Shown one piece after another: positions 51,347-64,000 of a stretch of 64,000 nucleotides of DNA. The notes beneath the pieces are model-generated. The model was not told where the DNA came from. It did not search any database and saw only the letters and a program-made list of their open reading frames with translations. Made by a program: the position numbers and the translations under genes. Positions within the stretch are counted from its first letter, which is position 1. The number at the start of each line of letters is the position of its first letter. Source of the stretch: a virus (Duplodnaviria; Caudoviricetes); IMG/VR virus record IMGVR_UViG_3300018089_000001, positions 96,001-160,000 of that record, one strand, 5' to 3'.

Positions 51347-54300
51347 CAGACCCATCCCTTCATCGAGGCCGGCGCCTCGATCTCCAGTTCGAACGTCGCG
51401 GCGGGCCCGTGCTCCCCGCCTCTCTTCCTGAGTTCCTCGGCCTTCCGCGCGACGTCGTCGTCGGTCGTCACGTCCGGAAACCTCGGCTCCGGTGGGGTCT
51501 GATACAACACAGACCACTGCTTGTCCCAGAAATCCCGGAAGTTCCGGACCTTCCGCGGGAGGTCGGCCCAGCTGTAGTGCCAGACTGACGGCAGCGAGGC
51601 GAACAGGGCGTTCATCTGCCGCCCGTATTCCGCCGGGTCCCGCTGGCGCAGCCCGTCGAGCTCCTTGGTATAGAACCCGCGGTGCTTGACATGGTCACCG
51701 GTGACCATGTCGATCAGTTCGCACCCGTCGGACATGCCGCGCTTGGCATAGATCCTGCCGGTCTTCGGATCGATGACCCGCGCCTGCGCGTTGATCCCGT
51801 GGGTGATGCGCAGGTTATTCCGACTGAGCCGCCACTTCCAGGAGTGGCGGTCGGTGCGGACATGCCTATCGTCCCCCCAGAGCTCGACCACTGGGAGATG
51901 CACGACGTCGACGTCGGCGGGGAACCTCTTGCAGAGCTCGCGAATCTTCCCGTAGTCCCGCTCGTGGACCACCTCGTCCGCGTCCTGCTGCCAGAGGAAC
52001 TCCGTCTCGGGGGAGACCATGGCCCGGCCGAAGGCCTTCTGCATGCCGTCCATGCCGGGCTCCTCGGGGTCCCACTCACGCGTGATGAGCTTCAGCTTCC
52101 CGACGGCCAGGGGATGCAGCATCGCCAATTCCTGGACTTTCTCCCGGCTGCCGTCCGTCGACCCACCGTCCACGACGATCACCTCGTCGCAGAAGCCGAG
52201 CATACTGACGATGCTCTGGACATACGGATAGCCGTGCGTCAGCGGATTGAGGATGTGGGTGTAACCCGCGATCCGCGGCCTGTACGGCTTGAACCTGACC
52301 TCCTGACCGGGCCTGAGGCAGTCCATCGCCTCGAGGAAGACCCGCTCGACCGGGATGCCGTTGATGCACGGGTCATCGGTGTCGACGGCGCAGGTGTCCT
52401 TGTAGCAGGCCCGCTCGCAGCCCTTCCGGTCAGTCGTCTCGATGAGACGCAGGCGCCGCGAGGCGTCATACACGAGGGTCCCGCACGCGATGCCCTCACG
52501 CTCCATCTCCGCGAGCTGGAAGTCCTTCGGACCGGTGCTCCGGGGGTATGAGCTGCCAAAGATCGCGATGACCTTGCAGCCGACCGCGTTCGCCACGTGC
52601 ATCGGGTAGGAGTCGATGCAGGCGATCGCGCCGACGTCGTCCAGGACGGAGACCAGCTCGATGTGGGACCGGCCCCTCGCGTCGAAATCCACGGGACCCA
52701 CGGGGACGTCGTCGGAGGCCCCGACCTGGACCACCTTGATCCCATTGTCCCGCAGGTTGCGCACTAGCTCAGACCAACCGGCCCACCGGCGGGCCGTCTT
52801 CTGGCCACCGGCGTGGACCGCGATCCAGGCGCCCACGTTCAGTCCCGGAAACTGTACCCGGGAGAGCTCGCTTCCCCTGGGAAAGACGGGCGGCTGGGCC
52901 TCGACGCCGCAGTGGTTCGCGAACTCGTCGATGAGGTTCCTGCCCCGTCCGCGGTGGACCCAGTTCGACCAGGCCATCTGGACCGCCAGGTTCGGGGTGT
53001 AGACCTCGTCGAAGATGTCCTCGAGGATCGAGACGTCCTGCATCCAGGGCTGCCACTCGAGCAGCTCATCCACCAACAGGGAGCCGTCCCCGAGTCGAAG
53101 GTCCCTCACGATGTCGAAGTACCTGGGGGAGGTGGCGAAGTAGACCCGATGTCCCGGGTGCTTGTCCCTCAGGGCCCGCACGACGCCAGTGCTGAGGAAG
53201 ATGTCCCCGGCTGACATCGGCATGGTGTAGACGAGCGCGGGACCCTTCTCCCGGACCCTGCGCCTGTTCTCGCGGACGAAGTCCCTCCGGGACTTCGGGG
53301 ACGCCTGGGCCAGCTGGTCGACGCCCCGCGCCAGCAGGTCGCAGAAGGCCGCTCCGGCGGAGGCAAGCGAGTACCGCTGGGCGATGTGCTGGGCCAGTTC
53401 GGCGGCCCACTGGCGCGGGGTGTCTGAGTTCAGGGCCATCTTCTGGAGCTTGACGCAGACGTCGGTCTCCCTGGGCACGGCCCAGTTCGTCCCGGCCTCC
53501 ATCACTCCCTCCCAGGCGCACTCCTGGGGGATGGGCTGCATGTCACACTCGAAGGGGACGAAGAGGCGCTTCCCGTCCTTGTGCAGGAAGTCGAGGTGCC
53601 CGGACCAGTTGGTGGCCATGACGGGCAGGCCGCACGCGGCCGCCTCGATCATTGGCAGGCCGAAGCCCTCGCCGTGGGTCAGGCTGACGGCGGCGACCAC
53701 GCGCGGGTCGTTATACAGCGCGGCCATCTCCGCCTCGGAGAGCCTGCCGTGGATGACCCGGATCGTCGGGAACTCCCCGCAGCCGGTCGAGGCCTTGATC
53801 TCCGCCACCCGCCGCTTGACGAGCTCGAAGTCCACCGTGGAGTAGTTCACGATGGAGGTCTTCAGGACCAGGCCGACGGACCTGCTCCCGGCGAAGGTCT
53901 TGCAGAAGTACTCGACCAGCCGCGTGACGTTCTTCCGGTCCTTGCCGTGTGGCTTGTCGAGGCCCAGGCCGACGAAGACGAAGCTCCGCTGCGGGAGGTC
54001 GTACTCGGTCAGCGTCGCCTCGGCCGGACGGTACACCGAGGTGTCGACGCCCTCCGGGATGACCATGATCGGCTTCTCGAGGTGGAGCTTCGACCCGTCG
54101 GACCCCTGGTACTCGACCATGAACGACGTGCGGGAGTGCTCCGAGGGGACGACGACGACGTCGACCTCCTGGTTGCACTTCATGATCCACTGCGGCGAGA
54201 CCCGGTCGACCTCGATCCCCGCGGTGACCCCGATCGTCAGCGGGGCCCGTCGCTTGAACTCGTTCGGAATCGTGACCTGCACGGCGACCTCGGGGTCGGC

Positions 54301-54498
54301 GTGGGTGCCCTGCAGAGCCATGATCCAGACGAACTCCGTCCCATTCAAGATCGGCGTGTCCCCCCATTTGATCGACTCGACGCGTACGTCGTACAGTCCG
54401 GTGTCGACGACGGACCTGAGCAGCTGACGGGCATGGACGCCGTAGCCGGAAGCAGTCAGAACGGGACCGGTGAACTGGAGCCTCGTCTTCGCCATCAT
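51346..54498 (-). CDS. Tri-domain glycosyltransferase (GT4 + GT9 + GT2-like)
   Basis: SGYG...GEGFGLPMIEAAACGLPV; AGDIFL...W...DSYPMHVA; DEVIVVDGGSTD...QDADEV. Confidence 0.85.
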   Translation of the reverse strand: MMAKTRLQFTGPVLTASGYGVHARQLLRSVVDTGLYDVRVESIKWGDTPILNGTEFVWIMALQGTHADPEVAVQVTIPNEFKRRAPLTIGVTAGIEVDRVSPQWIMKCNQEVDVVVVPSEHSRTSFMVEYQGSDGSKLHLEKPIMVIPEGVDTSVYRPAEATLTEYDLPQRSFVFVGLGLDKPHGKDRKNVTRLVEYFCKTFAGSRSVGLVLKTSIVNYSTVDFELVKRRVAEIKASTGCGEFPTIRVIHGRLSEAEMAALYNDPRVVAAVSLTHGEGFGLPMIEAAACGLPVMATNWSGHLDFLHKDGKRLFVPFECDMQPIPQECAWEGVMEAGTNWAVPRETDVCVKLQKMALNSDTPRQWAAELAQHIAQRYSLASAGAAFCDLLARGVDQLAQASPKSRRDFVRENRRRVREKGPALVYTMPMSAGDIFLSTGVVRALRDKHPGHRVYFATSPRYFDIVRDLRLGDGSLLVDELLEWQPWMQDVSILEDIFDEVYTPNLAVQMAWSNWVHRGRGRNLIDEFANHCGVEAQPPVFPRGSELSRVQFPGLNVGAWIAVHAGGQKTARRWAGWSELVRNLRDNGIKVVQVGASDDVPVGPVDFDARGRSHIELVSVLDDVGAIACIDSYPMHVANAVGCKVIAIFGSSYPRSTGPKDFQLAEMEREGIACGTLVYDASRRLRLIETTDRKGCERACYKDTCAVDTDDPCINGIPVERVFLEAMDCLRPGQEVRFKPYRPRIAGYTHILNPLTHGYPYVQSIVSMLGFCDEVIVVDGGSTDGSREKVQELAMLHPLAVGKLKLITREWDPEEPGMDGMQKAFGRAMVSPETEFLWQQDADEVVHERDYGKIRELCKRFPADVDVVHLPVVELWGDDRHVRTDRHSWKWRLSRNNLRITHGINAQARVIDPKTGRIYAKRGMSDGCELIDMVTGDHVKHRGFYTKELDGLRQRDPAEYGRQMNALFASLPSVWHYSWADLPRKVRNFRDFWDKQWSVLYQTPPEPRFPDVTTDDDVARKAEELRKRGGEHGPAATFELEIEAPASMKGWV

Positions 54499-55559
54499 CC
54501 CCTCGCGATGATCAGGCCGGAGCTGCCGGCCCCCATCTTCCGCTCGTATGCGTCCAGGACCTCGAGGCCCTGGAACAGATCGATCATCGGCTCCCAGCCG
54601 AGGACGTCCCGGGCCTTGGTGACGTCGGCGAGCGTCACGTTCGCTTCACCGGGCCTGGGTGGGACGTACTCGACGTTGACCGCGCTACTGATCATCGCGT
54701 TCGCAAAGTGCCGCGCCTCGATGATCGAGGCCAGCTCCGCGATGCTGTAGTTGCGGCCCGCCCCGATGTTGAAGACCCCCGTGGCCTCGTGGTTCATCAT
54801 GGCGAGCATGTTCGCCCGCACGACGTCCCCCACGAACGTGAAGTCCCGCCGCTGCGTGCCGTCACCGACGATCGTCATCCTCTGCCCGAGCCTGAGCTGG
54901 CGGCGGAAGATCGCGATGACAGTGGCGTACCGGCCCTCCTCCTGATGACGGGGTCCGTAGACGTTGAAGTACCGGAGGCTGACGGTGGAGATCCCGTACA
55001 GCCGGTGGTATACGTCCATGACGTCCTCGCCCGCCTTCTTGCTCACGCTGTACGGGTTGAGGCAGTCAGTGGGAAGGTCCTCGTGTAGACCCTTCACGTG
55101 GGGACCCGGCTTGGGCCCATCAGGAGAATCAACGCACCAATGATGCCCATCGTAGTTTGGGTCAAAAACCCAATCATTCCTTCGACCGTACGCCGACGAG
55201 CTCGCGGAGTAGACGATCCGGGCCACGCCCATCTGCCGGGCCGCCTCGGCCACGTTCACCGTGCCAACGACGTTGGTCTCGACGGAGTGCCGCGGGTCGG
55301 CGATGCCCGTCTGGATGCGGGAGTCGGCGGCGAGGTGGAACACGCACGATGCGTGGTCGCACGCCCGCCTGACCAGGTCGAAGTCCAGGATCGAGCCCCG
55401 GATGACCTGCAGCTTGGGATGCCGCCGCCACCGCTCGAGGTTGGCGTCCCGACCCTCGGAGAAGTCGTCCAGGACCCGGACCTCCATCCCCTGCGTGAGG
55501 AGCTCGTCAACGAGGTTCGAGCCGATGAAGCCGGCCCCGCCCGTCACGAGGACCGGCAT
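54495..55559 (-). CDS. NAD-dependent sugar epimerase/dehydratase
   Basis: VTGGAGFIGS, YSVSK, RYFNVYGP, GDGTQRRDF. Confidence 0.92.
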   Translation of the reverse strand: MPVLVTGGAGFIGSNLVDELLTQGMEVRVLDDFSEGRDANLERWRRHPKLQVIRGSILDFDLVRRACDHASCVFHLAADSRIQTGIADPRHSVETNVVGTVNVAEAARQMGVARIVYSASSSAYGRRNDWVFDPNYDGHHWCVDSPDGPKPGPHVKGLHEDLPTDCLNPYSVSKKAGEDVMDVYHRLYGISTVSLRYFNVYGPRHQEEGRYATVIAIFRRQLRLGQRMTIVGDGTQRRDFTFVGDVVRANMLAMMNHEATGVFNIGAGRNYSIAELASIIEARHFANAMISSAVNVEYVPPRPGEANVTLADVTKARDVLGWEPMIDLFQGLEVLDAYERKMGAGSSGLIIARG

Positions 55560-55873
55560 CAGAACTCTCCCTTGAACGAGGGGGGCTCGGTAGCCTCGGC
55601 CTTCTGGACCACGGTCCCGAGGAAGTTCTTGATCAGGCAGGTCTGGATCGTCTGGTTACCGATCCTGTGGGACGTCACTCCGATCATGTCACAAAGGACG
55701 ACGTCCCCCGCCTTGAACCCGTCGGCCTCAGGAGCGTTCTCGTCGAGTGCGACGATGCTCGCCAGGCGGTACTGGTTCGTAACGTTGCCGGGAACGTACA
55801 GGCTCCCGACCTTGTCCGCCTCGTCGATCGTCTTGATCCAGGCGTACCTGTTGCGTGGCTTCAGTTCGAACAT
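55559..55873 (-). CDS. GroES-like co-chaperonin
   Basis: LKPRNRY..., GSLYVP mobile loop, KAGDVVL, C-terminal FLGTV. Confidence 0.72.
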   Translation of the reverse strand: MFELKPRNRYAWIKTIDEADKVGSLYVPGNVTNQYRLASIVALDENAPEADGFKAGDVVLCDMIGVTSHRIGNQTIQTCLIKNFLGTVVQKAEATEPPSFKGEF

Positions 55874-55881
55874 GGTCTCCT

Positions 55882-57207
55882 TCAGATGCTGGCCGTCCTC
55901 AGTCCGATCTTACCACGGCGGGAGGCGTGTTGTTCCATGGCCTTGGTCAGGCCGGCGTCCCAGCCATCGAGCATGGTCTGCATGCCAAAGGTCCTGGTCG
56001 CCCACTCCCGGGCCTCCAGTCCGATCTTCCGGCGGGCCGTGCGGGGGATCCGATAGACCTTCTCCAGGGCGTCGGCGACCTGGTCGTCGTTGACCCGGTC
56101 GTCGTAGATGTACGGGACCTGCTGCGATCCCACGAGATTGCGGGCCGCTGGAAAGACCGGCACGCCCCACCACCTGTGGGTGTTCCTCCGGGACTTCGCG
56201 ACCTTCGTGAGTCTCTCCTGGTCAGAGAAGTCCCGCTGGTCCTGCCACCAGTCACCGACCTGAAACTGCAGGCCGCCGGTCATGTTCACCACGATCGGGG
56301 TACCCGCGTAGAGTGCCTCGAGGGTGCCCAACCCGAAGCCCTCGTTGTTACTGATGTTGATCACGCAGTCAGCACAGTTGTACATCACGTTCAGCTGCGA
56401 GGCGTCCACCCGTCCCTCCGAGAGGAGGAGGAGGTCCTGCACATCGAGCCTCCTCGCGACCGCGTTCACGTCCTGGCCCTCGGGGTCACCCGGGGCCGTG
56501 TGCATGAGCAACGCGACGCGGTCCCTCCCGACTCGCTTGGCAAGCCGAGCGAACGACTCGAGCACGTCGCCCGTCATCTTCCGCCTGGCGTTGCGGTTGT
56601 TCCACATCAGGATGAACTCGCGGGAGGCGAAGGGTCCGTAGTGGCGCCGACGGGCCTCGAGGACCTCGCTCTCCGGGAGGGGCCTGAACAGGTCGGCCGG
56701 CTCCGCGTGGGGGACATAGCTGTACCGCTCCTCGGGATACCCGAGTCCCTGGAGGATCCCGAAGGTCTTCAGGGACAGGGTCATGATGTAGTCCGTGGCC
56801 TCGTAGATGGGCCGGTTGAACTCGGGAGTCGGGTCGTTGTCCCACACGTGCCAATAGACGAGGGGGCAGACCGCCCGCACCTCGTCCTCCATCTCCCAGA
56901 CCCAGTAGAAGAACCTCGGGTCCGTGAAGAGGACCACCGCGTCCGGCTTCAACTCCGCGAGCATCCGCCGAAGCTTGTCCTTGTCCCCGTGCCCGTCGAC
57001 CGGATGGATCACCCAGTTGCCCTCCCCGAACTCGTCAGGGGACACCTGTTGGGGTGTGTAATCCGGGTGTTTGATCGCCCCGCCGAGGCAGGTGAAGCTG
57101 TACTTCCCTGTCTTGAGCAGGCCGCTGATTGTATATTTCGCTTGAATGCCGACGCCTGACGGAACAAGCGGGTGGTCACTGAGCCAGAGTATCTTCTTGC
57201 GGGTCAC
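55882..57207 (-). CDS. Glycosyltransferase GT4
   Basis: SDHP..PSGVG, NRNARRK, NEGFGLGTLEA. Confidence 0.88.
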   Translation of the reverse strand: MTRKKILWLSDHPLVPSGVGIQAKYTISGLLKTGKYSFTCLGGAIKHPDYTPQQVSPDEFGEGNWVIHPVDGHGDKDKLRRMLAELKPDAVVLFTDPRFFYWVWEMEDEVRAVCPLVYWHVWDNDPTPEFNRPIYEATDYIMTLSLKTFGILQGLGYPEERYSYVPHAEPADLFRPLPESEVLEARRRHYGPFASREFILMWNNRNARRKMTGDVLESFARLAKRVGRDRVALLMHTAPGDPEGQDVNAVARRLDVQDLLLLSEGRVDASQLNVMYNCADCVINISNNEGFGLGTLEALYAGTPIVVNMTGGLQFQVGDWWQDQRDFSDQERLTKVAKSRRNTHRWWGVPVFPAARNLVGSQQVPYIYDDRVNDDQVADALEKVYRIPRTARRKIGLEAREWATRTFGMQTMLDGWDAGLTKAMEQHASRRGKIGLRTASI

Positions 57208-57228
57208 CCCGTAAGTGGCCTCGGCGTG

Positions 57229-58113
57229 TTACTCAGACCGCGGGCAGTGCTCGGTTCCGAGGAAGGGGCACGCGGCGCGTCTCTCCTGCTTGGTCCGCCG
57301 GTCTATCCAGACCCTCTCGCACGCCTCGGGGTTCTTCTCGTATGCGTACGAGTGCATGCCCGAGATGGACCTCTGCATGTACTCCAGGGCCTGCTCCGTG
57401 GCCCTCGGTCCCGCGGAGACCTTCCGGACGTCCACCGTCAGCTCGTCCGCCGTCCGGGGGTCCTTCTTGAGGAGGATGAAGGCCACCGAGACGTTCCTCG
57501 GGTCGGCGCCCATCGTCTTACAGAAGAAGTGCTTGTACAGGAGGAGCTGGGAGATCACCTCCATGTCCTGGAACTTCTGGGCCGGCCAGCCCCAGGAGCA
57601 TGTCTTGAAGTCAGCGATGTAGATCACCGTCTTCCGCTTCAGACGCTTCACGAAGGTGATGTCGATGAAGCCCTTGAACATCATCTCCAGCCCGTCGGTG
57701 CGGGAGATCGGCTGCATCAGCCGCATCTCAGACACGAGGCTCCTGATGCCCTGCAGCTCGGGATGCCTGAGGCAGTCCCGATAGAACCGCTCGATGAAGG
57801 GCCGGACCCGATAGGCCTCCTCCACGTCGGAGGAATGGGTCAGGTTCAGCTCGAGGAGTGAGCGGTCGTACATCTCCAGGGCGTGCGCGGTGGCCTTGGC
57901 CACGTCACCCGGGGAATCAGGATCGTACAGGATCTCCAGGCCGGCGTGGACGGCCTTGCCGAACTCTATCTGGAACGATCGGTCGTCTGGGGCCAGCCCG
58001 TAGACCTTCGTCAGGAGCCAGCGCCACTGGCACTCGTTGAAGAGCCTGAGCTCGCTGAAGGAGACGTGCTCCCGGAGCTGTCCGCAGAGCGGCAGGTGGA
58101 CCCTTCTTGACAC
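57229..58113 (-). CDS. PD-(D/E)XK exonuclease (Cas4/AddB-like)
   Basis: SFSEL...C, FGKAVH, GFID, ADFKT, QLLLY, C-terminal Cys cluster; GTG start at 58113. Confidence 0.85.
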   Translation of the reverse strand: MSRRVHLPLCGQLREHVSFSELRLFNECQWRWLLTKVYGLAPDDRSFQIEFGKAVHAGLEILYDPDSPGDVAKATAHALEMYDRSLLELNLTHSSDVEEAYRVRPFIERFYRDCLRHPELQGIRSLVSEMRLMQPISRTDGLEMMFKGFIDITFVKRLKRKTVIYIADFKTCSWGWPAQKFQDMEVISQLLLYKHFFCKTMGADPRNVSVAFILLKKDPRTADELTVDVRKVSAGPRATEQALEYMQRSISGMHSYAYEKNPEACERVWIDRRTKQERRAACPFLGTEHCPRSE

Positions 58114-58262
58114 GGCCTCTCCTCTCCCAGGTACTGGGCGTTCATACCGCAACACTCGTCTCCGCAGAATGTGAGCCCGCAGTGCGGACACTCAGAGGGT
58201 GACGCGCCCTTGAAAATCGCACCGCATCCGTAGACCGGATCGCACCCATACCACCAGGTCAT
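58011..58262 (-). CDS. Small Cys-rich protein
   Basis: MTWWYGCDPVYGCG...CPHCG...CGDECCG; overlaps the nuclease start, so uncertain. Confidence 0.4.
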   Translation of the reverse strand: MTWWYGCDPVYGCGAIFKGASPSECPHCGLTFCGDECCGMNAQYLGEERPCQEGSTCRSADSSGSTSPSASSGSSTSASGAGS

Positions 58263-58405
58263 CAGGGGAACCTCGCGGCCCGCTGCAGGGTCCGCCAGTC
58301 CCGCATGACGATCCGCGGGCCGGGCCAGTCGCTCCGGAGATCGATCGGAACGAACCCGGAGCGGGTCAGGCGGAACCACCCGATGCCGCGGAACGTCAGC
58401 ATCGG

Positions 58406-58768
58406 TCAGTGCGTCTTATCGATCGCGACCAGGGTCACGCCCTCCGGGCAGTGCCCCCTCTTCACCTCGACGAACGTGCTGTCCGCCCGGAACGCTCCGA
58501 TGATCCTGTGCTCCTGTCCGTCCAGGACCACGCGGTCGGAGGCAGTCGCCTCCGCCTCCGCGGCGCGGGCGGTCTCGTACTTCCTCACCGCGGCCGCGGC
58601 GACCTTCAGCCTCTTCTCGAGGTCGTCGGCCCGCTTGGTCTGGTACGAGTGCTTGTCCGTCTGCTCCTTGAGCAGGGCCTCCAGCTCCGCGATGCGCGTG
58701 TCTCTCTGCTGGACCTGCACGGCAAACTGGTCGATCACCGGTACGTCCACGGGAACATTCTCTGGCAT
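58406..58768 (-). CDS. Coiled-coil hypothetical protein
   Basis: 120 aa with heptad pattern. Confidence 0.7.
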   Translation of the reverse strand: MPENVPVDVPVIDQFAVQVQQRDTRIAELEALLKEQTDKHSYQTKRADDLEKRLKVAAAAVRKYETARAAEAEATASDRVVLDGQEHRIIGAFRADSTFVEVKRGHCPEGVTLVAIDKTH

Positions 58769-58774
58769 ACCAGT

Positions 58775-58783
58775 ACCTTACCA
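58775..58783 (-). promoter_or_regulatory. Putative extended -10 element (leaderless mRNA)
   Basis: TGGTAAGGT 6 nt upstream of the ATG at 58768; no SD sequence. Confidence 0.4.
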
Positions 58784-58806
58784 CGCGGACGAATTGTTTG
58801 ACGCGG

Positions 58807-58839
58807 AAACAAATCGGGCCCGACGTCTCCGTCGGGCCC
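58807..58839 (-). terminator. Intrinsic terminator after the tRNA cluster
   Basis: Perfect 10-bp stem GGGCCCGACG-GAGA-CGTCGGGCCC followed by GATTTGTTT. Confidence 0.75.
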
Positions 58840-58864
58840 ATCGAACACCGCATCACGTGCAACC

Positions 58865-58952
58865 TGGCGGATGGCAGAGGATTCGAACCCCCGGCTTTCG
58901 CTGACCCGCGGCTAGCAACCGCGGTCCCGGACCGACTCCGGGTTTGCCATCC
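58865..58952 (-). tRNA. tRNA-Ser(GCT)
   Basis: Acceptor GGATGGC/GCCATCC, loop TTGCTAG, long variable arm, TTCGAAT, encoded CCA. Confidence 0.88.
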
Positions 58953-58954
58953 AA

Positions 58955-59131
58955 TTACAATCCGAGTTCCTTTCGAGCCTGGCCCATCGTCACATGGTAA
59001 GTGACCGTGGCCTGATGCCACCCCTTATCAGGGATGACGACAGAATCCTGGAACCAGCGAAACACCGCGTCGTCTGGAAGATGCGACATCGCGGCCACCA
59101 GCTCCTTAAGGGTCGTGGTCTTCGTTTCCAT
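58955..59131 (-). CDS. Small hypothetical protein between tRNAs (58 aa)
   Basis: Read by hand: METKTTTLKELVAAMSHLPDD...RKELGL; exactly fills the inter-tRNA space. Confidence 0.55.
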   Translation of the reverse strand: METKTTTLKELVAAMSHLPDDAVFRWFQDSVVIPDKGWHQATVTYHVTMGQARKELGL

Positions 59132-59133
59132 CG

Positions 59134-59202
59134 TCGCGGCGGGGAGACTCGAACCCCCGGAGATCGCCTTATGAGAGCGTCCCGGCCCCTGGCCTCGCCG
59201 CG
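59134..59202 (-). tRNA. tRNA with CAT anticodon (Met or Ile2), reduced D arm
   Basis: Acceptor CGCGGCG/CGCCGCG, loop CTCATAA, T arm GGGGG-TTCGAGT-CTCCC. Confidence 0.7.
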
Positions 59203-59263
59203 ATGTCTAGCGGGCCCCAGCGGGCCCGCGGAGTGACTCAAACTTGACAGGCCACCTTCCCCA

Positions 59264-59713
59264 TCACTTAGAGATGGCGATGGCGTAGAAGGCCTCCGAC
59301 TCATTCCGACAGCGCCACCGCCTGATCAGGGCGGGCCGCGAGAGGGAGTGGACGCCGTTCTCCGCGAGGTTGCGTCGCGTCCGGGCGGAGTCCGCCACGA
59401 TGACCCGGCCACCAACGCTCGCCACGACGGCGACCCAGTGCCTCCACTGGTCGATGCAGACCAGACAGGGCCGGCCCTCGGCCACGTTGGAGCGGACGAA
59501 GGCCCAGGCGGCCGGTCCGTCCATGCCGCCCCAGGGGGTGGCCTTCAGACCGAGCCCGCGGATCGCGCGGATGAGCTGCGACTCGTCCGTCCCGTCGGGA
59601 CCGGACTCCGCCAGCCGCCTCACCCGCGACTCGGAGACGCGGACGCCGAGGGCCTGACAGGCGTTGACGACCGCAGCCGAACCGCAGCTCCACTCCGTGG
59701 CCTGATACCTAAT
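59264..59713 (-). CDS. C39-like cysteine peptidase (probable ATT start)
   Basis: In-frame extension RYQATEWSCGSAA supplies the Q-x5-C motif; HWVAV and VADS complete the triad; an in-frame TAG lies 5 codons upstream of the ATT. Confidence 0.78.
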   Translation of the reverse strand: MRYQATEWSCGSAAVVNACQALGVRVSESRVRRLAESGPDGTDESQLIRAIRGLGLKATPWGGMDGPAAWAFVRSNVAEGRPCLVCIDQWRHWVAVVASVGGRVIVADSARTRRNLAENGVHSLSRPALIRRWRCRNESEAFYAIAISK

Positions 59714-59740
59714 CTCGAGTCCCTGCTATATCTGGGGAGC

Positions 59741-60463
59741 ATGGCTGGAATATACTCGCTGATCGATCCACGGACAGGAATCGTAAGGTACGTGGGGAAA
59801 ACTACACACTCTCTTAGTAAGAGGTTGAAATCTCACCTTGGAGACCGCAGCCAAACCGCAAAGACTCGCTGGATCCATGAACTGCTCTCAGAGAGCATGT
59901 CTCCATTGATCCAATGGCTCGAAGAAGGAGACCTCAATCTCAACGAGAGGGAGATCTGGTGGATCAACCAACTACGATCAGAAGGTGTGGACCTGACGAA
60001 TAGCACCGACGGAGGCGACGGCGGAAGGATCGAACTGGATGTACAATCGAAGCAACGCTGGATCGAAAAACTCTCTCTTCGTAGACGAGAATGGTGGCAA
60101 CGTGCCAGCATTGATGCAAAGCAGAAACAGGCAGCGTCTGTCTCGCAACACTGGCAAAACCTCTCCAACGAAGAGAGGAGCATCAGATCTGAATCGATCC
60201 GAAGCGGACTCAAGGGGATGCCCTCCCCGCTTAGGGGGCGCAAGCAGTCTGAACAGCAGAGAGAGCGCCTGAGGAGCGCTCTCTCTGACCCATCTGTCAG
60301 ATCAAAAATGTCAGAGGCGCGGAGAGAATGGTGGAAGAAAAACAAGGATAGGCCAAGACCACCTGTCGCTGACTCAACTCGAGAGAAACTACGAAAGGCT
60401 GCCCTCAAAAGGGAGGAGCGAAAGAGGTCCCAGAGGGATTCGAACCCACGACCATCCCGTTAG
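59741..60463 (+). CDS. GIY-YIG homing endonuclease with NUMOD3-like repeats
   Basis: MAGIYSLIDP...RYVGKT...RLKSH...EIWWI...LTNSTDGGDG; GRKQSEQQRERL, STREKLR; low GC; opposite strand. Confidence 0.88.
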   Translation: MAGIYSLIDPRTGIVRYVGKTTHSLSKRLKSHLGDRSQTAKTRWIHELLSESMSPLIQWLEEGDLNLNEREIWWINQLRSEGVDLTNSTDGGDGGRIELDVQSKQRWIEKLSLRRREWWQRASIDAKQKQAASVSQHWQNLSNEERSIRSESIRSGLKGMPSPLRGRKQSEQQRERLRSALSDPSVRSKMSEARREWWKKNKDRPRPPVADSTREKLRKAALKREERKRSQRDSNPRPSR

Positions 60464-60499
60464 AACCGGGAAGCTCTTGTCCACTGAGCTTATGGGACC
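60425..60499 (-). tRNA. tRNA-Arg(TCT)
   Basis: GGTCCCA/TGGGACC, D arm AGCTC/GAGCT, TCCCG-GTTCTAA-CGGGA, TTCGAAT. Confidence 0.85.
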
Positions 60500-60500
60500 C

Positions 60501-60577
60501 TGGAGTGCGACCTCGGGATCGAACCGAGCAACAGGCGGGTTGCAGCCGCCGCCCTTCATCCAGCCGGGACGTCGCAC
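60501..60577 (-). tRNA. tRNA-Cys(GCA)
   Basis: GTGCGAC/GTCGCAC, GGCGG-CTGCAAC-CCGCC, U73, encoded CCA. Confidence 0.88.
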
Positions 60578-60587
60578 AGAACTTCGT

Positions 60588-60857
60588 TCAGAGGATGCGT
60601 CTCAGGAAGTTGAGGAGCGCGTCCGCGTGGTCGTGGGAGAGGGAGAGCAGGCCGCGGAGGCCGCCGTGCGTCGGACTGGCCGTCCGGTCCCTGTCCAGGA
60701 CCTCCCAGAGGGCAGCCCTCTCCAGGGGGGAGAGGACGACCGCCTTCGGATCGAGGTAGCCGCCGAGGGCCTCCGTGACCGCCACGAGGCCCGCCAGCGG
60801 GTCCTCGTCGGGAAACGGCCCACCCGGGAAGATGGGTTCGTCAGTGGTCTCACTCAT
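60588..60857 (-). CDS. Hypothetical protein
   Basis: MSETTDEP..., GAGGA RBS; lies between tRNAs. Confidence 0.55.
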   Translation of the reverse strand: MSETTDEPIFPGGPFPDEDPLAGLVAVTEALGGYLDPKAVVLSPLERAALWEVLDRDRTASPTHGGLRGLLSLSHDHADALLNFLRRIL

Positions 60858-60872
60858 CTCTGGATTCCTCCG

Positions 60873-60943
60873 TAGCCCTGTGGAGAATCGAACTCCATCC
60901 CGATGATTGAAAATCATCTCGACTGCCGTTATCTGACAGGGCC
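60873..60943 (-). tRNA. tRNA-Glu(TTC)
   Basis: GGCCCTG/CAGGGCT, GATGA-TTTTCAA-TCATC, TGGAG-TTCGATT-CTCCA. Confidence 0.8.
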
Positions 60944-61429
60944 TCTTGCTTTCCGCAGTGCCTTCGCTCTCGTCGAGAGAGGGAATTTCCCCACATTTCG
61001 ACCGCTGTAGGTCGATGTAAGGGCATGACACATCGCACAAAGCAACCTTAGGTTGCTTCGATCGTTGTTGTCTGGGTTTCCGTCAATGCGATCCATCTGG
61101 ATTGGAGCGGGCTGGCCCAACCACTCCATGATTCCACAGTTCTCGCAGCGACGTCCCATTTCACGTAGCAGATGAAGTTTACGAGCGCCGTCTGATTTCA
61201 GAGCACCCCAGCTGCGATCCATCACCGGAATCACACGGATCTTACAAAGATTGCAGTGGACCTTTGTGCCAAACTCGCGATTGTACACAGCACCACATTG
61301 CGTGCAAGTTCTAAACTTTCGGAGGCGCTCACCGACATCGCGCTGTGAACACTTCCTTGAGCAAAACCGTTTACGCGATGATGGCTTGACTTGAAATGAA
61401 ATTCCGCACTTACAAGTGCGATCTTCCAT
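60929..61429 (-). CDS. HNH homing endonuclease with zinc fingers
   Basis: CENCG...MDRIDGNPDNNDRSNLRLLCAMCH; N-terminal CSRKC/CTQC; low GC; ATG at 61429. Confidence 0.85.
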   Translation of the reverse strand: MEDRTCKCGISFQVKPSSRKRFCSRKCSQRDVGERLRKFRTCTQCGAVYNREFGTKVHCNLCKIRVIPVMDRSWGALKSDGARKLHLLREMGRRCENCGIMEWLGQPAPIQMDRIDGNPDNNDRSNLRLLCAMCHALTSTYSGRNVGKFPLSTRAKALRKARGPVR

Positions 61430-61430
61430 A

Positions 61431-61456
61431 CGTCCTTCCGTTAGACTGACGGGGCC
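61431..61456 (-). pseudogene. Orphan tRNA-Glu 5' fragment (acceptor strand + D arm)
   Basis: GGCCCCGTCAGTCTAACGGAAGGACG resembles the 5' end GGCCCTGTCAGATAACGGCAGTCG of the tRNA-Glu at 60873..60943. Confidence 0.65.
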
Positions 61457-61465
61457 AAGCTGCCA

Positions 61466-61478
61466 TAGAATTATGCCA
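61466..61478. promoter_or_regulatory. Overlapping divergent -10 elements
   Basis: Minus strand TGGCATAAT (61478-61470); plus strand TAGAAT (61466-61471), 6 nt before the ATG at 61478. Confidence 0.45.
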
Positions 61479-61705
61479 TGAGGGCATGCATCTACGTTCC
61501 GTTCGTCTCCTGTCGAGGCGTGGAGTACGAGCTGGAGATCGAGCCGTCCGACGACGGACGGATACACGCGGTGGGACGCTTCGTCGAGGACGAGCGGGGG
61601 ACCGTCACGGCCGAGCCGCTCGGACTGAGCTGGGACGGCCTGATCCCCATGTCGCAGGACCTGCGGGTCGCGATCGTCAGCTGGCGATCCGATCCGGGAA
61701 ACTAG
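61478..61705 (+). CDS. Hypothetical protein (possibly leaderless)
   Basis: 75 aa, GC-rich third positions, fits exactly between the HNH cassette and tRNA-Gly. Confidence 0.55.
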   Translation: MRACIYVPFVSCRGVEYELEIEPSDDGRIHAVGRFVEDERGTVTAEPLGLSWDGLIPMSQDLRVAIVSWRSDPGN

Positions 61706-61707
61706 GG

Positions 61708-61780
61708 TGCGGACGATGGGATTCGAACCCACCACCCCCTGATTGGCAACCAGGCGCTCTACCGAATGAGCTACGTCCGC
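61708..61780 (-). tRNA. tRNA-Gly(GCC)
   Basis: GCGGACG/CGTCCGC, canonical D arm, CCTGG-TTGCCAA-TCAGG, TTCGAAT. Confidence 0.92.
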
Positions 61781-61820
61781 GTGTCAGCAGGCTACTACCC
61801 GGCCTGCCAGCGGTATCAGT

Positions 61821-63437
61821 TCACTTCACGAAGCCGGCCATCTCGGCCGCGAACCTCAGGATCCCCTCGCCCCAGCCGCCGAGGACGTACGTCCGCCGGT
61901 AGAACTCGGGCATGATGGTGTCCTGGTAGCCGGCGACCTGCACCAGGAAGACGTTCACGTCGGGGTTGACCTCAGCGCGGTACTTCCTGACCAGCTTGGC
62001 GACGTCGATGTGGCGACCGTCCCAGGCGTAGTCGCGGTACTCACCGGGCTTGATCCCGTACAGGCCGCCGTGGCCCGCCTGCATGTCCGAGAACACGAAG
62101 ACGTTGTCCCACCTGACCTTGCCCGCGATCGCGTCCCGCCAGAACATCCAGATCCCGTTCTCGGTGGACTGCCCGATGTCCCGGGCCAGCGACTCCGCGC
62201 GGGCGAGCTGGTCGAACGCCGAGGCGAGCTTGCGCACCGGAAAGACCTTGAGGTCGTCGCCGAAGACTCCGAGGCTGCCCTCGTCGGACGCCATGGCCGC
62301 GATGATGCCGGTCAGGTTCGCGATCGTGGACACCCGCATGCTTCCCATCGAGGAGGTGGTGGCCCCCTGCGCCGAGCCGCTGTTGTCACACAGCGAGATC
62401 GTCCTGCCCGGGAGACGCGGGACGTTGTCCAGCGAGGTACGCAGGCATCGCTCGATCGCATCGAGCACGGTGGCCGGGGCGATGTCCTGGACGGCCAGGT
62501 ACGCCGAGTAGTATCGGAACGGCAGCTGCTTGCCCGCGGCCGCGCCCTCGACGAGCTTGTCCACGAAGACCGACGGGTCGATCCCCTTCTGGAGGACGTT
62601 CCGCACGTTCCTGAGGAGAGCCATGTGGCCCATCACGTCGATCGCCTTCCGCCAGTTCTCCGGGGTGGAGCCGCCGGTCGAGATGATCGACTCCCAGGTC
62701 TGGTCCGTGGAGACCAGCTTTCCCTTCATCAGGGCGTCGAGCGCCGCGGTCCGCTTGGGATGGACGAGGTTCACGACGTCGAGCGTCTTGACCGTCCGGT
62801 TCTCCATGCGGTACTTGGCGAGCTGATACTCCGTCAACCGCGTCAGCTTGTCCGCCCACGCCTTCTTCAGCGAGTTCGGGATGGGCGCGTCCTTGCCGAA
62901 GCGCCAGACGTGATAGGCCAGCCCCACCGCCGGCTCGTCGGCGCGCTGGATGATGTCCGGCGCGTACTGCCGCACCAGGCCGGTCCCGCGAACCTTGGGG
63001 TGACGCGCGGCCCGCACGAGGATGACCTGCGGGGTCGTCCTGATGTGCTCGGCCTGCCGCAGCCGCACGGCCTCCTTGAGAGTGCGGACCGGATCGTGGT
63101 CGAGGGCCCGGTCGATGGCCGACTCGATCGCCTCGGCCGGCGTCTTCCCACGCCACTCCTGGGGATCGATCGCGTCGAGCGTCTTCCGCAGCTCGACGCG
63201 CTGGGCGTCGGTCAGGAAGGACGGGACCGATGTGTGGTGAGGCACCGGTCGCTTGACACGCCTGTCCTCCGGATCGGCCTCGTAGTACTTCGGCTCACCG
63301 AAGAAGCACGAGCTCGCGGCGATCCTGAGGGCCTTGACGGGATCGTTGATGTCATATGACTCGCCGCCCATCCAGTTCAGGTGAGGCGTCGGCGCCTCGG
63401 GCGCCTGCTTGGTCTCGTGGAACCGGGACATCGTCAC
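61821..63437 (-). CDS. Ro60/Rsr-family TROVE + vWA RNA-binding protein
   Basis: FFGEPKYY, EYQLAKY, TWES, MALLRN, LPFRYYSAY, MIDAS motif CDNSGS and FSDMQ. Confidence 0.92.
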   Translation of the reverse strand: MTMSRFHETKQAPEAPTPHLNWMGGESYDINDPVKALRIAASSCFFGEPKYYEADPEDRRVKRPVPHHTSVPSFLTDAQRVELRKTLDAIDPQEWRGKTPAEAIESAIDRALDHDPVRTLKEAVRLRQAEHIRTTPQVILVRAARHPKVRGTGLVRQYAPDIIQRADEPAVGLAYHVWRFGKDAPIPNSLKKAWADKLTRLTEYQLAKYRMENRTVKTLDVVNLVHPKRTAALDALMKGKLVSTDQTWESIISTGGSTPENWRKAIDVMGHMALLRNVRNVLQKGIDPSVFVDKLVEGAAAGKQLPFRYYSAYLAVQDIAPATVLDAIERCLRTSLDNVPRLPGRTISLCDNSGSAQGATTSSMGSMRVSTIANLTGIIAAMASDEGSLGVFGDDLKVFPVRKLASAFDQLARAESLARDIGQSTENGIWMFWRDAIAGKVRWDNVFVFSDMQAGHGGLYGIKPGEYRDYAWDGRHIDVAKLVRKYRAEVNPDVNVFLVQVAGYQDTIMPEFYRRTYVLGGWGEGILRFAAEMAGFVK

Positions 63438-63466
63438 TGCCTTTCTCTCGGAGGAGTGGAGGAGTT

Positions 63467-63533
63467 GGCGGAGGAAGGGCGGGCGCGGTGTTTTTCACCC
63501 AATAGAAGTAACCGCTCCCAAGTCACTGCCGCC
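63467..63533 (-). ncRNA. Y-like RNA copy A (candidate Ro60 ligand)
   Basis: GGCGG-CAGUGAC-..GGGAGCGG-UUACUUC-loop-CCGCGCCC..-CCUUCCU-CCGCC. Confidence 0.75.
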
Positions 63534-63536
63534 TAG

Positions 63537-63604
63537 CGCATCCGGATCGAATTGAACGACCATCTCCCGATGTTGAGTCAGGGCTCTGCTTGAGCTACGA
63601 ACGC
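63537..63604 (-). tRNA. Atypical tRNA-like element (CAA anticodon, short variable loop, D loop lacks GG)
   Basis: GCGTTCG/CGGATGC, GCTC-AAGCA-GAGC, CCTGA-CTCAACA-TCGGG, GGTCG-TTCAATT-CGATC. Confidence 0.6.
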
Positions 63605-63611
63605 AAGTCGC

Positions 63612-63746
63612 ACGTCGGAGAATACCGCCCACGGTGTGTTAGCGTGCTACCGTTACACCAAGGACCCATGGAGTGGGCCCCCCAGGACTTGAACCTGGAC
63701 CTCTCTCTTACAAGGAGAAGTAACCGCAGGACATCACTGCCGACGT
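63612..63746 (-). ncRNA. YrlA-like Y RNA copy B containing a circularly permuted tRNA
   Basis: ACGUCGG/CCGACGU outer stem and the same CAGUGA/UUACUUC motifs, enclosing anticodon, T, closed acceptor and D arms in permuted order. Confidence 0.85.
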
Positions 63747-63761
63747 ACGGAAAGTGTCGCA

Positions 63762-63845
63762 ATGCGAAGGAAGTCGACGACGGGTTTTTCGTTTTCGGTT
63801 GAAAACCGAATGATGTTGAAGTAACCGTCACCATCACTGTCGCAT
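63762..63845 (-). ncRNA. Y-like RNA copy C
   Basis: AUGCGA-CAGUGAU-GGUGACGG-UUACUUC-...UUCGGUU/AACCGAA hairpin...-CCGUCGUC-GACUUCCU-UCGCAU. Confidence 0.78.
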
Positions 63846-63852
63846 CGCGTCG

Positions 63853-63921
63853 TGCTCCCGGACCGAGTCGAACGGCCGGCCTCCCAGACCAGCTGGGCGC
63901 TCTACACTGAGCTACGGGAGC
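63853..63921 (-). tRNA. Atypical tRNA-Thr-like element with 5-nt anticodon loop
   Basis: GCTCCCG/CGGGAGC, GCTC-AGTGTA-GAGC, CCCAG-CTGGT-CTGGG, GGCCG-TTCGACT-CGGTC. Confidence 0.65.
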
Positions 63922-63925
63922 TAAA

Positions 63926-63989
63926 GGGGAAGGAAGCTCGGAGCGGGGTTGTTCTTGGCATGAAGTAACCGCTTACCGTCACTGTCCCC
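63926..63989 (-). ncRNA. Y-like RNA copy D
   Basis: GGGGA-CAGUGAC-GGUAAGCGG-UUACUUC-loop-CCGCUCCG-AGCUUCCU-UCCCC. Confidence 0.75.
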
Positions 63990-64000
63990 AAGCCATTATG

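What the first reader, a model, noticed from the sequence alone, without database searches (positions are those of the whole stretch)
61821..63989. Phage Ro60/TROVE gene preceded by an array of modular Y-like RNAs
Seen: four elements on the minus strand (63467-63533, 63612-63746, 63762-63845, 63926-63989) directly upstream of the TROVE gene share one architecture. It runs outer stem, CAGUGA(C/U), inner stem ending CGG, invariant UUACUUC, a variable payload, CCG, a pyrimidine-rich UUC(C)U strand, and back to the outer stem. The stems differ in sequence yet stay paired (GGCGG/CCGCC, ACGUCGG/CCGACGU, AUGCGA/UCGCAU, GGGGA/UCCCC), which is covariation, while the loop motifs are fixed. Established: bacterial Ro60 (Rsr) binds Y RNAs encoded beside it, through a stem formed by the 5' and 3' ends, and Y RNAs tether effectors such as PNPase. 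Inference: this is a phage-encoded family of Ro60 adaptor RNAs with a constant docking module and interchangeable effector modules. The module differs from the GNCGAA-type motif I recall for YrlA. It may act in RNA repair or decay, or counter host anti-phage RNases. The array may continue beyond the window edge.
Basis: partly seen in the sequence, partly recalled or inferred. Interest (0 to 1): 0.92.

Follow-up and report, generated by a model that had tools for sequence, protein, structure and literature searches.

The report
Phage Ro60 gene with four Y RNAs
A 185-kb peat phage carries a Ro60-type RNA-binding ring protein and, just upstream inside its tRNA gene cluster, four small partner RNAs that share one docking stem but carry different inserts; this is an uncatalogued variant of the known Ro60/Y-RNA partnership that is also common in bacteria and other phages.

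Summary
Four minus-strand elements share one layout: outer stem, CAGUGA, inner stem closed by CGG:CCG, UUACUUC, variable insert, pyrimidine strand. They lie between two tRNA-like genes at the end of a 41-tRNA array, directly upstream of a TROVE gene. There are exactly four copies in the 185-kb genome, so the array does not continue past the window edge.

The protein models as a full Ro60 ring plus vWA domain. Its nearest solved relative is Thermus phage phiLo Ro60.

A covariance model built from short copies found the module on the TROVE strand, mostly 80-700 nt upstream. It hit 60 of 80 bacterial and 19 of 30 viral loci of this Ro60 clade. In five whole bacterial genomes it hit nowhere else. 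Stem covariation is strong.

Rfam has no match. The published YrlA motif GNCGAA is replaced, but YrlA's conserved UA and tRNA-like core are kept.

The best reading is YrlA/YrlB-type Y RNAs with a variant docking motif. They are not phage-specific, and Ro60 binding is inferred. Three of the four inserts display hairpin loops matching the phage's own tRNA anticodon loops (7/7, 7/7, 6/7).

This scan has noted UUACUUC-type modules on other DNA before, in at least 18 genomes. Class: new variant of a known kind.

The parts
61821..63431 (-). Ro60/TROVE protein gene (536 aa from the ATG at 63431; an in-frame GTG lies at 63437)
   Evidence: Pfam TROVE 46.2 bits. The nearest solved sequence is phiLo phage Ro60, 9KOP/9L5Y, E 7.6e-19. 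The AlphaFold model has pLDDT 75.6, and its 13 matches with Foldseek E below 0.001 are all Ro60/Rsr chains aligned over 460-520 columns. The MIDAS-type D-N-S-G-S at residues 349-353 is invariant in 12 homologues.
63467..63533 (-). Y1: short Y-like RNA, 67 nt, nearest the Ro60 start. Its insert is of the U/G-rich plus A-rich type that the single bacterial copies also carry.
   Evidence: Sequence; fold; CM R1 51.6 bits, E 8e-9; aligned with bacterial copies in A5.
63536..63604 (-). tRNA-like gene (Leu-CAA by ARAGORN, 69 nt, no long variable arm), 2 nt from Y1 and 7 nt from Y2
   Evidence: ARAGORN; Rfam tRNA 37.9 bits.
63612..63746 (-). Y2: long Y-like RNA, 135 nt. Its insert is a circularly permuted tRNA look-alike (YrlA type): a hairpin with an anticodon-type loop, a T arm, an acceptor stem closed by a loop, and a D arm.
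   Evidence: Sequence and fold, z -3.3. blastn 82.8% over 62 nt to the region 250 nt upstream of the Ro-like gene of mycobacteriophage ScoobyDoobyDoo. The hairpin loop is identical to the anticodon loop of the phage tRNA-Thr(UGU).
63762..63845 (-). Y3: Y-like RNA, 84 nt. Its insert holds a 5-bp hairpin whose 7-nt loop equals the anticodon loop of the phage tRNA-Glu(UUC).
   Evidence: CM R1 43.2 bits, E 7e-7; loop match.
63852..63921 (-). tRNA-like gene (Pro-UGG by ARAGORN) with a shortened, 5-nt anticodon loop, 4 nt from Y4 and 6 nt from Y3
   Evidence: ARAGORN. Rfam tRNA 53.3 bits, with model positions deleted in the anticodon loop.
63926..63989 (-). Y4: short Y-like RNA, 64 nt. A 3-bp hairpin carries a 7-nt loop that matches the tRNA-Gly(GCC) anticodon loop at 6 of 7 positions.
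   Evidence: CM R1 60.1 bits, E 8e-11; loop match.
61706..61780 (-). tRNA-Gly(GCC), 40 nt downstream of the Ro60 stop. The tRNA array resumes here.
   Evidence: ARAGORN; Rfam 68.4 bits.

Best explanation
The four elements are genes for Y RNAs of the bacterial YrlA/YrlB kind, partners of the Ro60 protein encoded just downstream.

Shown:
- They share a covarying rod. It has an outer stem made by the 5' and 3' ends, then a conserved 5' strand (C-AG-U-GA) facing a pyrimidine strand (U-Y-C-U). The rod continues into an inner stem closed by CGG:CCG, and then a junction that starts UUAC-UUC and usually ends A-rich.
- This rod recurs next to orthologous Ro60 genes in many bacteria and phages, and nowhere else in the genomes searched.
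- The inserts differ between copies.

Inferred:
- The elements are transcribed with the tRNA array, and cleavage of the flanking tRNA-like genes by RNase P and RNase Z frees them.
- Ro60 binds the conserved 5' strand of the bulged helix, as it binds GNCGAA or GGUCCGA in known Y RNAs. AG and GA may pair with UYCU, leaving C and U bulged.
- The insert is held out from the ring to recruit or occupy another factor.
- Y1 is the ancestral short form.
- Y2 is the tRNA-like YrlA form.
- Y3 and Y4 are phage additions.

Y2, Y3 and Y4 each display a copy of an anticodon loop of one of the phage's own tRNAs. The likely use during infection is to steer or blunt host RNA decay or tRNA-directed enzymes. The solved phiLo Ro60/Yrl complex, for comparison, binds and attenuates host PNPase.
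For: Anatomy and chance controls.

Ro60 identity of the protein.

Link to Ro60:
- R1 gave 96 matches in 100 TROVE-centred loci, all on the TROVE strand and nearly all just upstream of the start.
- At E <= 0.01, 60 of 80 bacterial and 19 of 30 viral loci are positive.
- In five whole bacterial genomes of 2.5-13 Mb, all 8 matches are the ones beside TROVE.
- In the 185-kb phage there are only these copies.
- In a motif-first scan of IMG/VR, the copies validated by the model lie on contigs that all carry a TROVE gene.

Covariation.

Kinship with YrlA:
- Y2's core matches a mycobacteriophage YrlA.
- Rfam YrlA hits the tRNA-like core of the Deinococcus xinjiangensis homologue at 42.7 bits.
- YrlA's conserved YUAY/UA kink is described in PMC4201824 and 10.1101/312249.

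Precedent for phage Ro60 binding upstream Y-like RNAs and host PNPase: PMC12135203.

Co-transcription: no promoter-like site, and no minus-strand terminator-like site between the array and the gene. Gaps to the flanking tRNA-like genes are 2-7 nt.

Anticodon-loop matches.
Against: There are no expression data: no RNA run holds this DNA. No binding data exist for this clade. Rfam's YrlA and Y_RNA models do not match the window even at E <= 1, and the published GNCGAA motif is absent. The AG:CU and GA:UY pairs barely vary, so their pairing is not proven by covariation. The middle helix is only 64% paired in the alignment used. About a quarter of the clade's loci gave no R1 match, although many of these carry other variants of the 5' motif. 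The whole-genome searches scored only the best 150 first-look candidates per genome.
Confidence: 0.78

Rival explanations
1. The elements are cis-acting leader structures of the Ro60 mRNA, for example autoregulatory binding sites or attenuators, and not separate stable RNAs.
For: In bacteria there are usually only one or two copies, always on the coding strand, with a median of 170 nt between the module and the start codon. There is no terminator-like site between Y1 and the gene.
Against: Copies also lie downstream of the gene in several phages: L207, L235, L051 and crAss001. In the window they are separated by tRNA-like genes that would be cut out. The Sorangium long form has tRNA-type ends with an encoded CCA. 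M. smegmatis YrlA and YrlB are likewise upstream and are processed from one precursor into stable Rsr-bound RNAs (PMC4201824).
Confidence: 0.07
2. The conserved rod docks a protein other than Ro60, for example a host tRNA- or RNA-processing factor. On this view Ro60 is only a pathway neighbour.
For: The UUACUUC junction is more conserved than the presumed Ro60-binding strand, which changes between clades. Earlier notes of this scan report UUACUUC modules beside a different large protein gene (unchecked).
Against: Across more than 100 loci from distant phyla, the only gene that stays beside the module is TROVE. The 5' motif appears to differ between Ro60 clades, as a protein-specific contact might, though this was not tested on a tree. 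The motif occupies the same place as the Ro60-contacting strand of known Y RNAs.
Confidence: 0.08
3. The elements are decayed tRNA genes or processing spacers of the tRNA array with no function of their own, or they are repeats.
For: They lie inside a tRNA array, and Y2 contains tRNA arms.
Against: Only motif and structure are shared, not sequence (51% mean column identity). The stems covary. The rod is absent from the other 39 tRNA spacers of the array. It is found in bacteria without any tRNA array.
Confidence: 0.03

Closest known systems
YrlA and YrlB, bacterial and mycobacteriophage Y RNAs bound by Rsr/Ro60 (Chen et al. [quoted passage not shown]
   Same: They are encoded beside Ro60 on the same strand. 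A long stem is formed by the two ends, with a conserved 5' strand. An inner stem is followed by a conserved Y-U-A-Y. The second domain is modular. One copy (Y2) carries T and D arms and a closed acceptor stem, and it is directly similar to a mycobacteriophage YrlA. Short copies (Y1, Y4) resemble YrlB.
   Different: GNCGAA(N)G is replaced by (C/U)AGUGA facing UYCU. The junction is extended to an almost invariant UUACUUC. Rfam YrlA gives no match in the window. There are four copies interleaved with tRNA-like genes. There is no rsr-rtcBA operon. The partner protein has no BLASTP-significant similarity to the mycobacteriophage Ro protein (best E 0.079).
phiRo60 with Yrl1/Yrl2 of Thermus phage phiLo (Hu et al. 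2025, PMC12135203; PDB 9KOP, 9L5Y)
   Same: It is the nearest solved relative of the window's protein (phmmer E 7.6e-19; Foldseek TM 0.64-0.73). It is a phage Ro60 with two Y-like RNAs upstream of the gene. That paper shows RNA binding and attenuation of host PNPase, which gives a working model.
   Different: About 20-22% identity. The phiLo RNAs were picked by a CGAA motif. I could not read their sequences, so I could not test whether they carry the UUACUUC junction.
Deinococcus radiodurans Rsr with Yrn1/Yrn2, and vertebrate Ro60 with Y RNAs (PDB 2NVO, 1YVP)
   Same: The same protein fold (Foldseek E about 1e-10). The logic is the same: a bulged terminal helix docks the ring, and the other end tethers an effector such as PNPase.
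   Different: No sequence-level match of protein or RNA (Rfam Y_RNA gave no hit).

Membership tests
Ro60 / Rsr (TROVE + vWA ring protein) | TROVE domain detectable by profile | tested here: met
   Pfam PF05731, 46.2 bits against a cut-off of 23.
Ro60 / Rsr (TROVE + vWA ring protein) | [quoted passage not shown] | tested here: met
   AlphaFold model, pLDDT 75.6 and pTM 0.74. All 13 Foldseek matches with E below 0.001 are Ro60 or Rsr chains aligned over 460-520 columns. vWA domains follow from rank 14.
Ro60 / Rsr (TROVE + vWA ring protein) | MIDAS-type DxSxS motif in the vWA domain | tested here: met
   D349-N-S-G-S353 is invariant in 12 homologues.
Ro60 / Rsr (TROVE + vWA ring protein) | Binds Y RNA and misfolded RNA | not testable with these tools
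   Needs EMSA or RIP.
Y RNA (functional class) | Encoded next to the Ro60 gene, same strand | tested here: met
   Window. Family level: 96 of 96 matches are on the TROVE strand, and whole-genome matches occur only beside TROVE.
Y RNA (functional class) | Terminal stem formed by the 5' and 3' ends, with a conserved bulged region | tested here: met
   Folds. Covariation of the outer and inner stems on 77 copies. The conserved AGUGA/UYCU region lies between them.
Y RNA (functional class) | Physically bound by Ro60 in cells | not testable with these tools
   No RNA run holds this DNA, and no binding data exist.
YrlA (Rfam RF02553; Chen et al. 2014) | GNCGAA(N0-1)G motif near the 5' end | tested here: not met
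   All four copies have CAGUGA(C/U) at that place. The motif definition is from PMC4201824. A control mycobacteriophage locus has it.
YrlA (Rfam RF02553; Chen et al. 2014) | tRNA-like domain with conserved T and D arms | tested here: met
   Met by Y2 only: sequence and blastn to a mycobacteriophage YrlA. Y1, Y3 and Y4 lack it, like YrlB.
YrlA (Rfam RF02553; Chen et al. 2014) | Conserved Y-U-A-Y after the stem that leads to the Ro60 module | tested here: met
   UUAC follows the CGG of the inner stem in all four copies. It is 90% or more conserved in 77 copies. The feature is described.
YrlA (Rfam RF02553; Chen et al. 2014) | Reaches the Rfam gathering score (69 bits) | tested here: not met
   No YrlA match at E <= 1 in 57000-64000, nor at E <= 0.1 in the 17-kb locus. 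The controls also stay below threshold, at 28.8 and 42.7 bits, so the Rfam model is narrow.

The most novel reading that the evidence does not exclude
A distinct Ro60 clade, shared by Myxococcota, Chloroflexota, some Deinococcus and many large phages, reads its own docking code (AGUGA/UYCU plus the UUACUUC junction). Phages have expanded its partner RNAs into sets of adaptors that display exact copies of tRNA anticodon loops on bodies that cannot be aminoacylated. On this reading the Ro60 particles act as baits. They capture or divert host enzymes that read anticodon loops, such as anticodon nucleases of anti-phage defence or tRNA-modifying or acetylating toxins, and so protect the phage's own tRNA set.
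Probability: 0.22. Interest if true: 0.85.

Novelty: new variant of a known kind. Interest (0 to 1): 0.6.

Why it matters
Ro60 and Y RNAs are conserved from bacteria to humans, yet what bacterial and phage Y RNAs do is largely open. Chen et al. [quoted passage not shown]

This locus and its relatives define such a variant. It has a clear sequence-structure signature that no Rfam model detected in these searches. That signature lets short, YrlB-like Y RNAs be found by computation in many genomes.

The same UUACUUC junction, with other forms of the 5' motif, appears in cultured systems where binding and function can be tested at once. These include Sorangium cellulosum So ce56, Deinococcus xinjiangensis, Bacillus phage G, Gordonia and Streptomyces phages, CcrColossus and crAss001.

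The 5' motif appears to change with the Ro60 clade, which offers a natural experiment on how the ring recognises its RNA.

Several inserts copy anticodon loops of the phage's own tRNAs. This gives a concrete, testable idea for what phage Ro60 particles are for.

Tried and rejected
- Rfam 15 at permissive thresholds on the window, the 17-kb locus and nine related loci gave no Y RNA family beyond weak YrlA hits to tRNA-like cores.
- blastn of the region against 50,697 phage records matched only tRNAs and the YrlA core. The phage has no close sequenced relative.
- The first genome-contig scan, with the single protein, found nothing. The scan with an alignment worked.
- The exact-pattern scan of IMG/VR returned 119 or more stretches, most of them chance matches by my estimate and by the model. 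They are not used as counts.
- Expression: no RNA holder listed. The only run is the peat metagenome the contig probably came from.
Payload evolution among near relatives could therefore not be followed.
- The supplementary tables of Chen et al. 2014 and two Wolin-lab reviews are not held. I cannot say whether the long tRNA-like forms of Sorangium or phage G were among their 355 predicted YrlAs.
- RtcB and Rnl-type ligases are absent from the phage, and RtcB is not adjacent to TROVE in five bacterial genomes.
- Pfam gave nothing for the small ORFs between the downstream tRNAs.
- A second CAGUGA at the Ro60 ribosome-binding site (63441-63446) is not conserved in Sorangium or Deinococcus. I treat it as chance.
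- I did not build a second model that tolerates long inserts.
Full report
**Where it is.** The window is bases 96001-160000 of a 185,486-bp IMG/VR virus record. The only public run holding this DNA is a peat metagenome. The region of the finding is the 3' end of a minus-strand array of 41 tRNA genes that extends about 5.5 kb beyond the window edge.

Read 5' to 3' on the minus strand, the order is:
- tRNA-Gly(CCC), outside the window
- Y4 (63989-63926)
- a tRNA-Pro-like gene (63921-63852)
- Y3 (63845-63762)
- Y2 (63746-63612)
- a tRNA-Leu-like gene (63604-63536)
- Y1 (63533-63467)
- the TROVE gene (ATG at 63431, stop at 61821)
- tRNA-Gly(GCC) and further tRNAs

Gaps between the Y elements and the flanking tRNA-like genes are 2-7 nt.

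The quoted outer stems pair as stated. Minimum-energy folds close each element by its two ends.
- The 10-mer made of CGG plus UUACUUC occurs exactly four times on this strand. With one mismatch allowed there are 10 hits in the whole window, against 2.2 expected.
- The two-motif pattern occurs four times, against zero in 200 shuffles of the 17-kb stretch.
- No fifth copy exists in that stretch or in the whole 185-kb genome. The array does not run on past the window edge.

**The protein is a Ro60.**
- Pfam TROVE matches at 46 bits.
- By sequence, the only solved relatives are the two entries of Thermus phage phiLo Ro60, at E 7.6e-19. Canonical Ro60 and Rsr are not reached.
- There is no BLASTP-significant similarity to the Ro-like protein of a cluster C mycobacteriophage (best E 0.079).
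- By structure the picture is unambiguous. An AlphaFold model (pLDDT 75.6) matches phiLo Ro60 first, at TM 0.64-0.73. Xenopus and human Ro60 and D. radiodurans Rsr follow at E about 1e-10, over nearly the full length.
- A MIDAS-type DxSxS is invariant.
- The clade is large and well conserved. More than 3,000 proteins were detected. Homologues in Sorangium, Polyangium, Aggregatilineales and others are 60-65% identical.

**The RNA module belongs to this Ro60 clade, not to phages.** I built covariance model R1 from ten short copies taken from the window and from unrelated viral contigs.
- In 100 loci centred on homologous TROVE genes it gave 96 matches. All are on the coding strand, and nearly all lie just upstream of the start.
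- At E <= 0.01, 60 of 80 bacterial loci and 19 of 30 viral loci are positive.
- In five whole bacterial genomes of 2.5-13 Mb, the only matches at E <= 0.01 are the eight copies beside TROVE. The caveat is that only the best 150 first-look candidates per genome were scored.
- In a motif-first scan of IMG/VR most exact pattern matches were chance. The copies the model accepts lie on contigs that all carry a TROVE gene.
- A stricter descriptor found 114 elements: 92 upstream of TROVE, 7 downstream on the same strand and none on the opposite strand. The other 15 lie in fetched pieces without the gene, and 11 of those are on contigs later shown to carry it.

**Structure.** On 77 aligned copies I counted a 17-pair structure.
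- 87% of cells are paired, against 68% in shuffles.
- The covariation score is 0.531, against 0.174 in shuffles and 0.08-0.16 when partners are slid.
- Outer-stem cells are 91% paired and inner-stem cells 94%, each with many double changes.
- Between them lies the conserved (C/U)-AG-U-GA strand facing U-Y-C-U. AG and GA can pair with UYCU, leaving C and U bulged. These positions hardly vary, so this pairing is a proposal only.
- After the CGG:CCG closure comes UUACUUC, then the insert, usually ending in an A-rich run before CCG.
- Of 100 unique elements, 50 are short (80 nt or less), 18 carry a T-loop and 32 carry other hairpins. The "constant handle, variable cargo" description is therefore true of the family as well as of this window.

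**Relation to YrlA.** Chen et al. (2014) defined YrlA by a GNCGAA(N)G motif near the 5' end, a Y-U-A-Y, and a tRNA-like domain. They noted that short YrlB-type RNAs escaped their searches and that variants were to be expected.
- The window's RNAs lack GNCGAA and give no Rfam YrlA or Y_RNA match.
- They do keep the UA-containing tetranucleotide at the same place. In the Salmonella YrlA structure this UA makes the kink.
- Y2's T arm, closed acceptor stem and D arm are 83% identical over 62 nt to the YrlA upstream of the Ro-like gene of mycobacteriophage ScoobyDoobyDoo.
- The Rfam model itself is narrow. It scores known-type controls only at 29-43 bits, through the tRNA-like core alone.
- In Sorangium So ce56 the long form is circularly permuted relative to Y2. 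The acceptor stem is open and ends in CCA, and the docking rod is closed by a loop. Rfam's tRNA model therefore hits it with the rod as a long insertion.

**Other forms of the 5' motif, with the same junction.**
- AGCGG occurs in Bacillota, Thermoguttaceae and some viral loci.
- Arrays of 4-6 modules with the same UUACUUC junction flank TROVE genes in cultured phages. These are Bacillus phage G, Xanthomonas phage MET23-P3, Gordonia phage Neville, Streptomyces phage BRock, CcrColossus, Rhizobium phage RHph_TM39 and crAss001.
- Set side by side by eye, these motifs form a continuum around G-Y-G-(N)-A-(N)-G. It includes both the published motif and the window's AGUGA. No formal alignment or tree was made.

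I therefore file the elements as Y RNAs of the YrlA/YrlB kind with a variant docking motif, not as a separate kind of RNA.

**How it probably works.**
- Shown: the anatomy, the covariation and the exclusive linkage to Ro60.
- From established knowledge: Ro60 binds the conserved 5' strand of the terminal helix of Y RNAs, and the other end tethers effectors such as PNPase. A phage Ro60 of the nearest solved type binds two upstream Y-like RNAs and attenuates host PNPase.
- Inferred here: the four RNAs are co-transcribed with the tRNA array. There is no promoter-like site, and no minus-strand terminator-like site between the array and the gene. They would be released when RNase P and RNase Z excise the adjacent tRNA-like genes.
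- The tRNA-Pro-like gene has a 5-nt anticodon loop. The tRNA-Leu-like gene lacks the long variable arm. Both may serve mainly as processing handles.
- In other phages too, the Ro60/Y cluster sits in or beside tRNA arrays, twice with a tmRNA gene.

**The inserts.**
- Y1's insert resembles that of the single bacterial copies.
- Following a lead from other notes of this scan, I compared the insert hairpins with the anticodon loops of the phage's 41 tRNAs.
- Y2's 5-bp hairpin has a loop identical to that of tRNA-Thr(UGU). Y3's has a loop identical to that of tRNA-Glu(UUC). Y4's 3-bp hairpin loop matches that of tRNA-Gly(GCC) at 6 of 7 positions. Y1 has no match.
- Two exact matches arose in 5 of 20,000 shuffles. 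Three payloads with at most one mismatch arose in 12.
- Across the family, hairpins with a 5-bp stem and a 7-nt loop carrying U at position 2 and a purine at position 6 number 9, against 2.1 +/- 1.3 in shuffles. The Deinococcus xinjiangensis long form has the same loop as Y2.
- The stems do not match those of the tRNAs.
- This supports the view that the inserts present anticodon-type loops to something. What that something is remains open.

**Context.** There is no RtcB or Rnl-type ligase in the phage, though a CCA-adding-type nucleotidyltransferase lies elsewhere in the genome. RtcB is not beside TROVE in five bacterial genomes. The Salmonella-type rsr-rtcBA arrangement therefore does not apply.

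**Verdict.** The feature is real and well supported. It is a new variant of a known kind, widespread in bacteria and phages, and this scan has noted it repeatedly on other DNA. Ro60 binding, discrete transcripts and function are still untested.

Noticed in passing
window 63852-63921 and 63536-63604 (minus strand): The two tRNA genes interleaved with the Y RNAs look unfit for decoding. The Pro-UGG gene has a 5-nt anticodon loop. The Leu-CAA gene is 69 nt with no long variable arm and scores only 37.9 bits. A normal tRNA-Pro(UGG) exists elsewhere in the array. They may act as RNase P/Z processing handles.
   Followed up: partly
L139:2682-2816 (Sorangium cellulosum So ce56) and L125:2700-2826: The long Y RNA of Polyangia is circularly permuted relative to Y2. 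It is a tRNA-shaped RNA with open acceptor ends and an encoded CCA. The Ro60 docking rod, closed by a loop, sits where the anticodon arm would be. Rfam's tRNA model hits it at 48-52 bits with a long insertion.
   Followed up: partly
L240:260-2400 (Bacillus phage G); L244, L245, L246, L247, L248, L243: Cultured phages carry arrays of 4-6 modules with the same UUACUUC junction but other 5' motifs, beside their TROVE genes. The phages are G, Gordonia Neville, CcrColossus, crAss001, Streptomyces BRock, Rhizobium RHph_TM39 and Xanthomonas MET23-P3. The motifs are AGCGG, GAUGCG(U/A)AG, GGCGUAG, GGUGUAG and GUUGCGA. None of these modules appears among the features annotated in the fetched regions.
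   Followed up: partly
window 63441-63446 (minus strand), 10-15 nt before the ATG at 63431: A fifth CAGUGA lies between the ribosome-binding site and the start codon of the Ro60 gene. It is not conserved at that place in Sorangium or Deinococcus, so it is probably chance, but it could be a site for autoregulation.
   Followed up: partly
L003:7001-7021 (the 3' half reaches window 64000; the rest lies just past the window edge), minus strand: Between tRNA-Gly(CCC) and Y4 there is a free-standing 7-bp hairpin with a 7-nt loop that has U at position 2 and a purine at position 6. This is another anticodon-arm-like hairpin, without a docking rod.
   Followed up: no
L003:7180-7478 and 7905-8206 (beyond the window edge): Two stretches of about 300 nt inside the tRNA array have no tRNA and no Rfam match at E <= 0.1. 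They may hold other structured RNAs.
   Followed up: no
window 51346-57207 (minus strand): Downstream of the tRNA/Ro60 block lie a 1050-aa multi-glycosyltransferase protein, a GDP-mannose-dehydratase/epimerase-type enzyme, a GT4 'conflict-system' glycosyltransferase and a PD-(D/E)XK nuclease. This may be a sugar-modification module of the phage.
   Followed up: no
L204:1902-2240 and L038:1956-2310: Two related phage contigs carry a tmRNA gene in the same tRNA/Y RNA/Ro60 neighbourhood.
   Followed up: no
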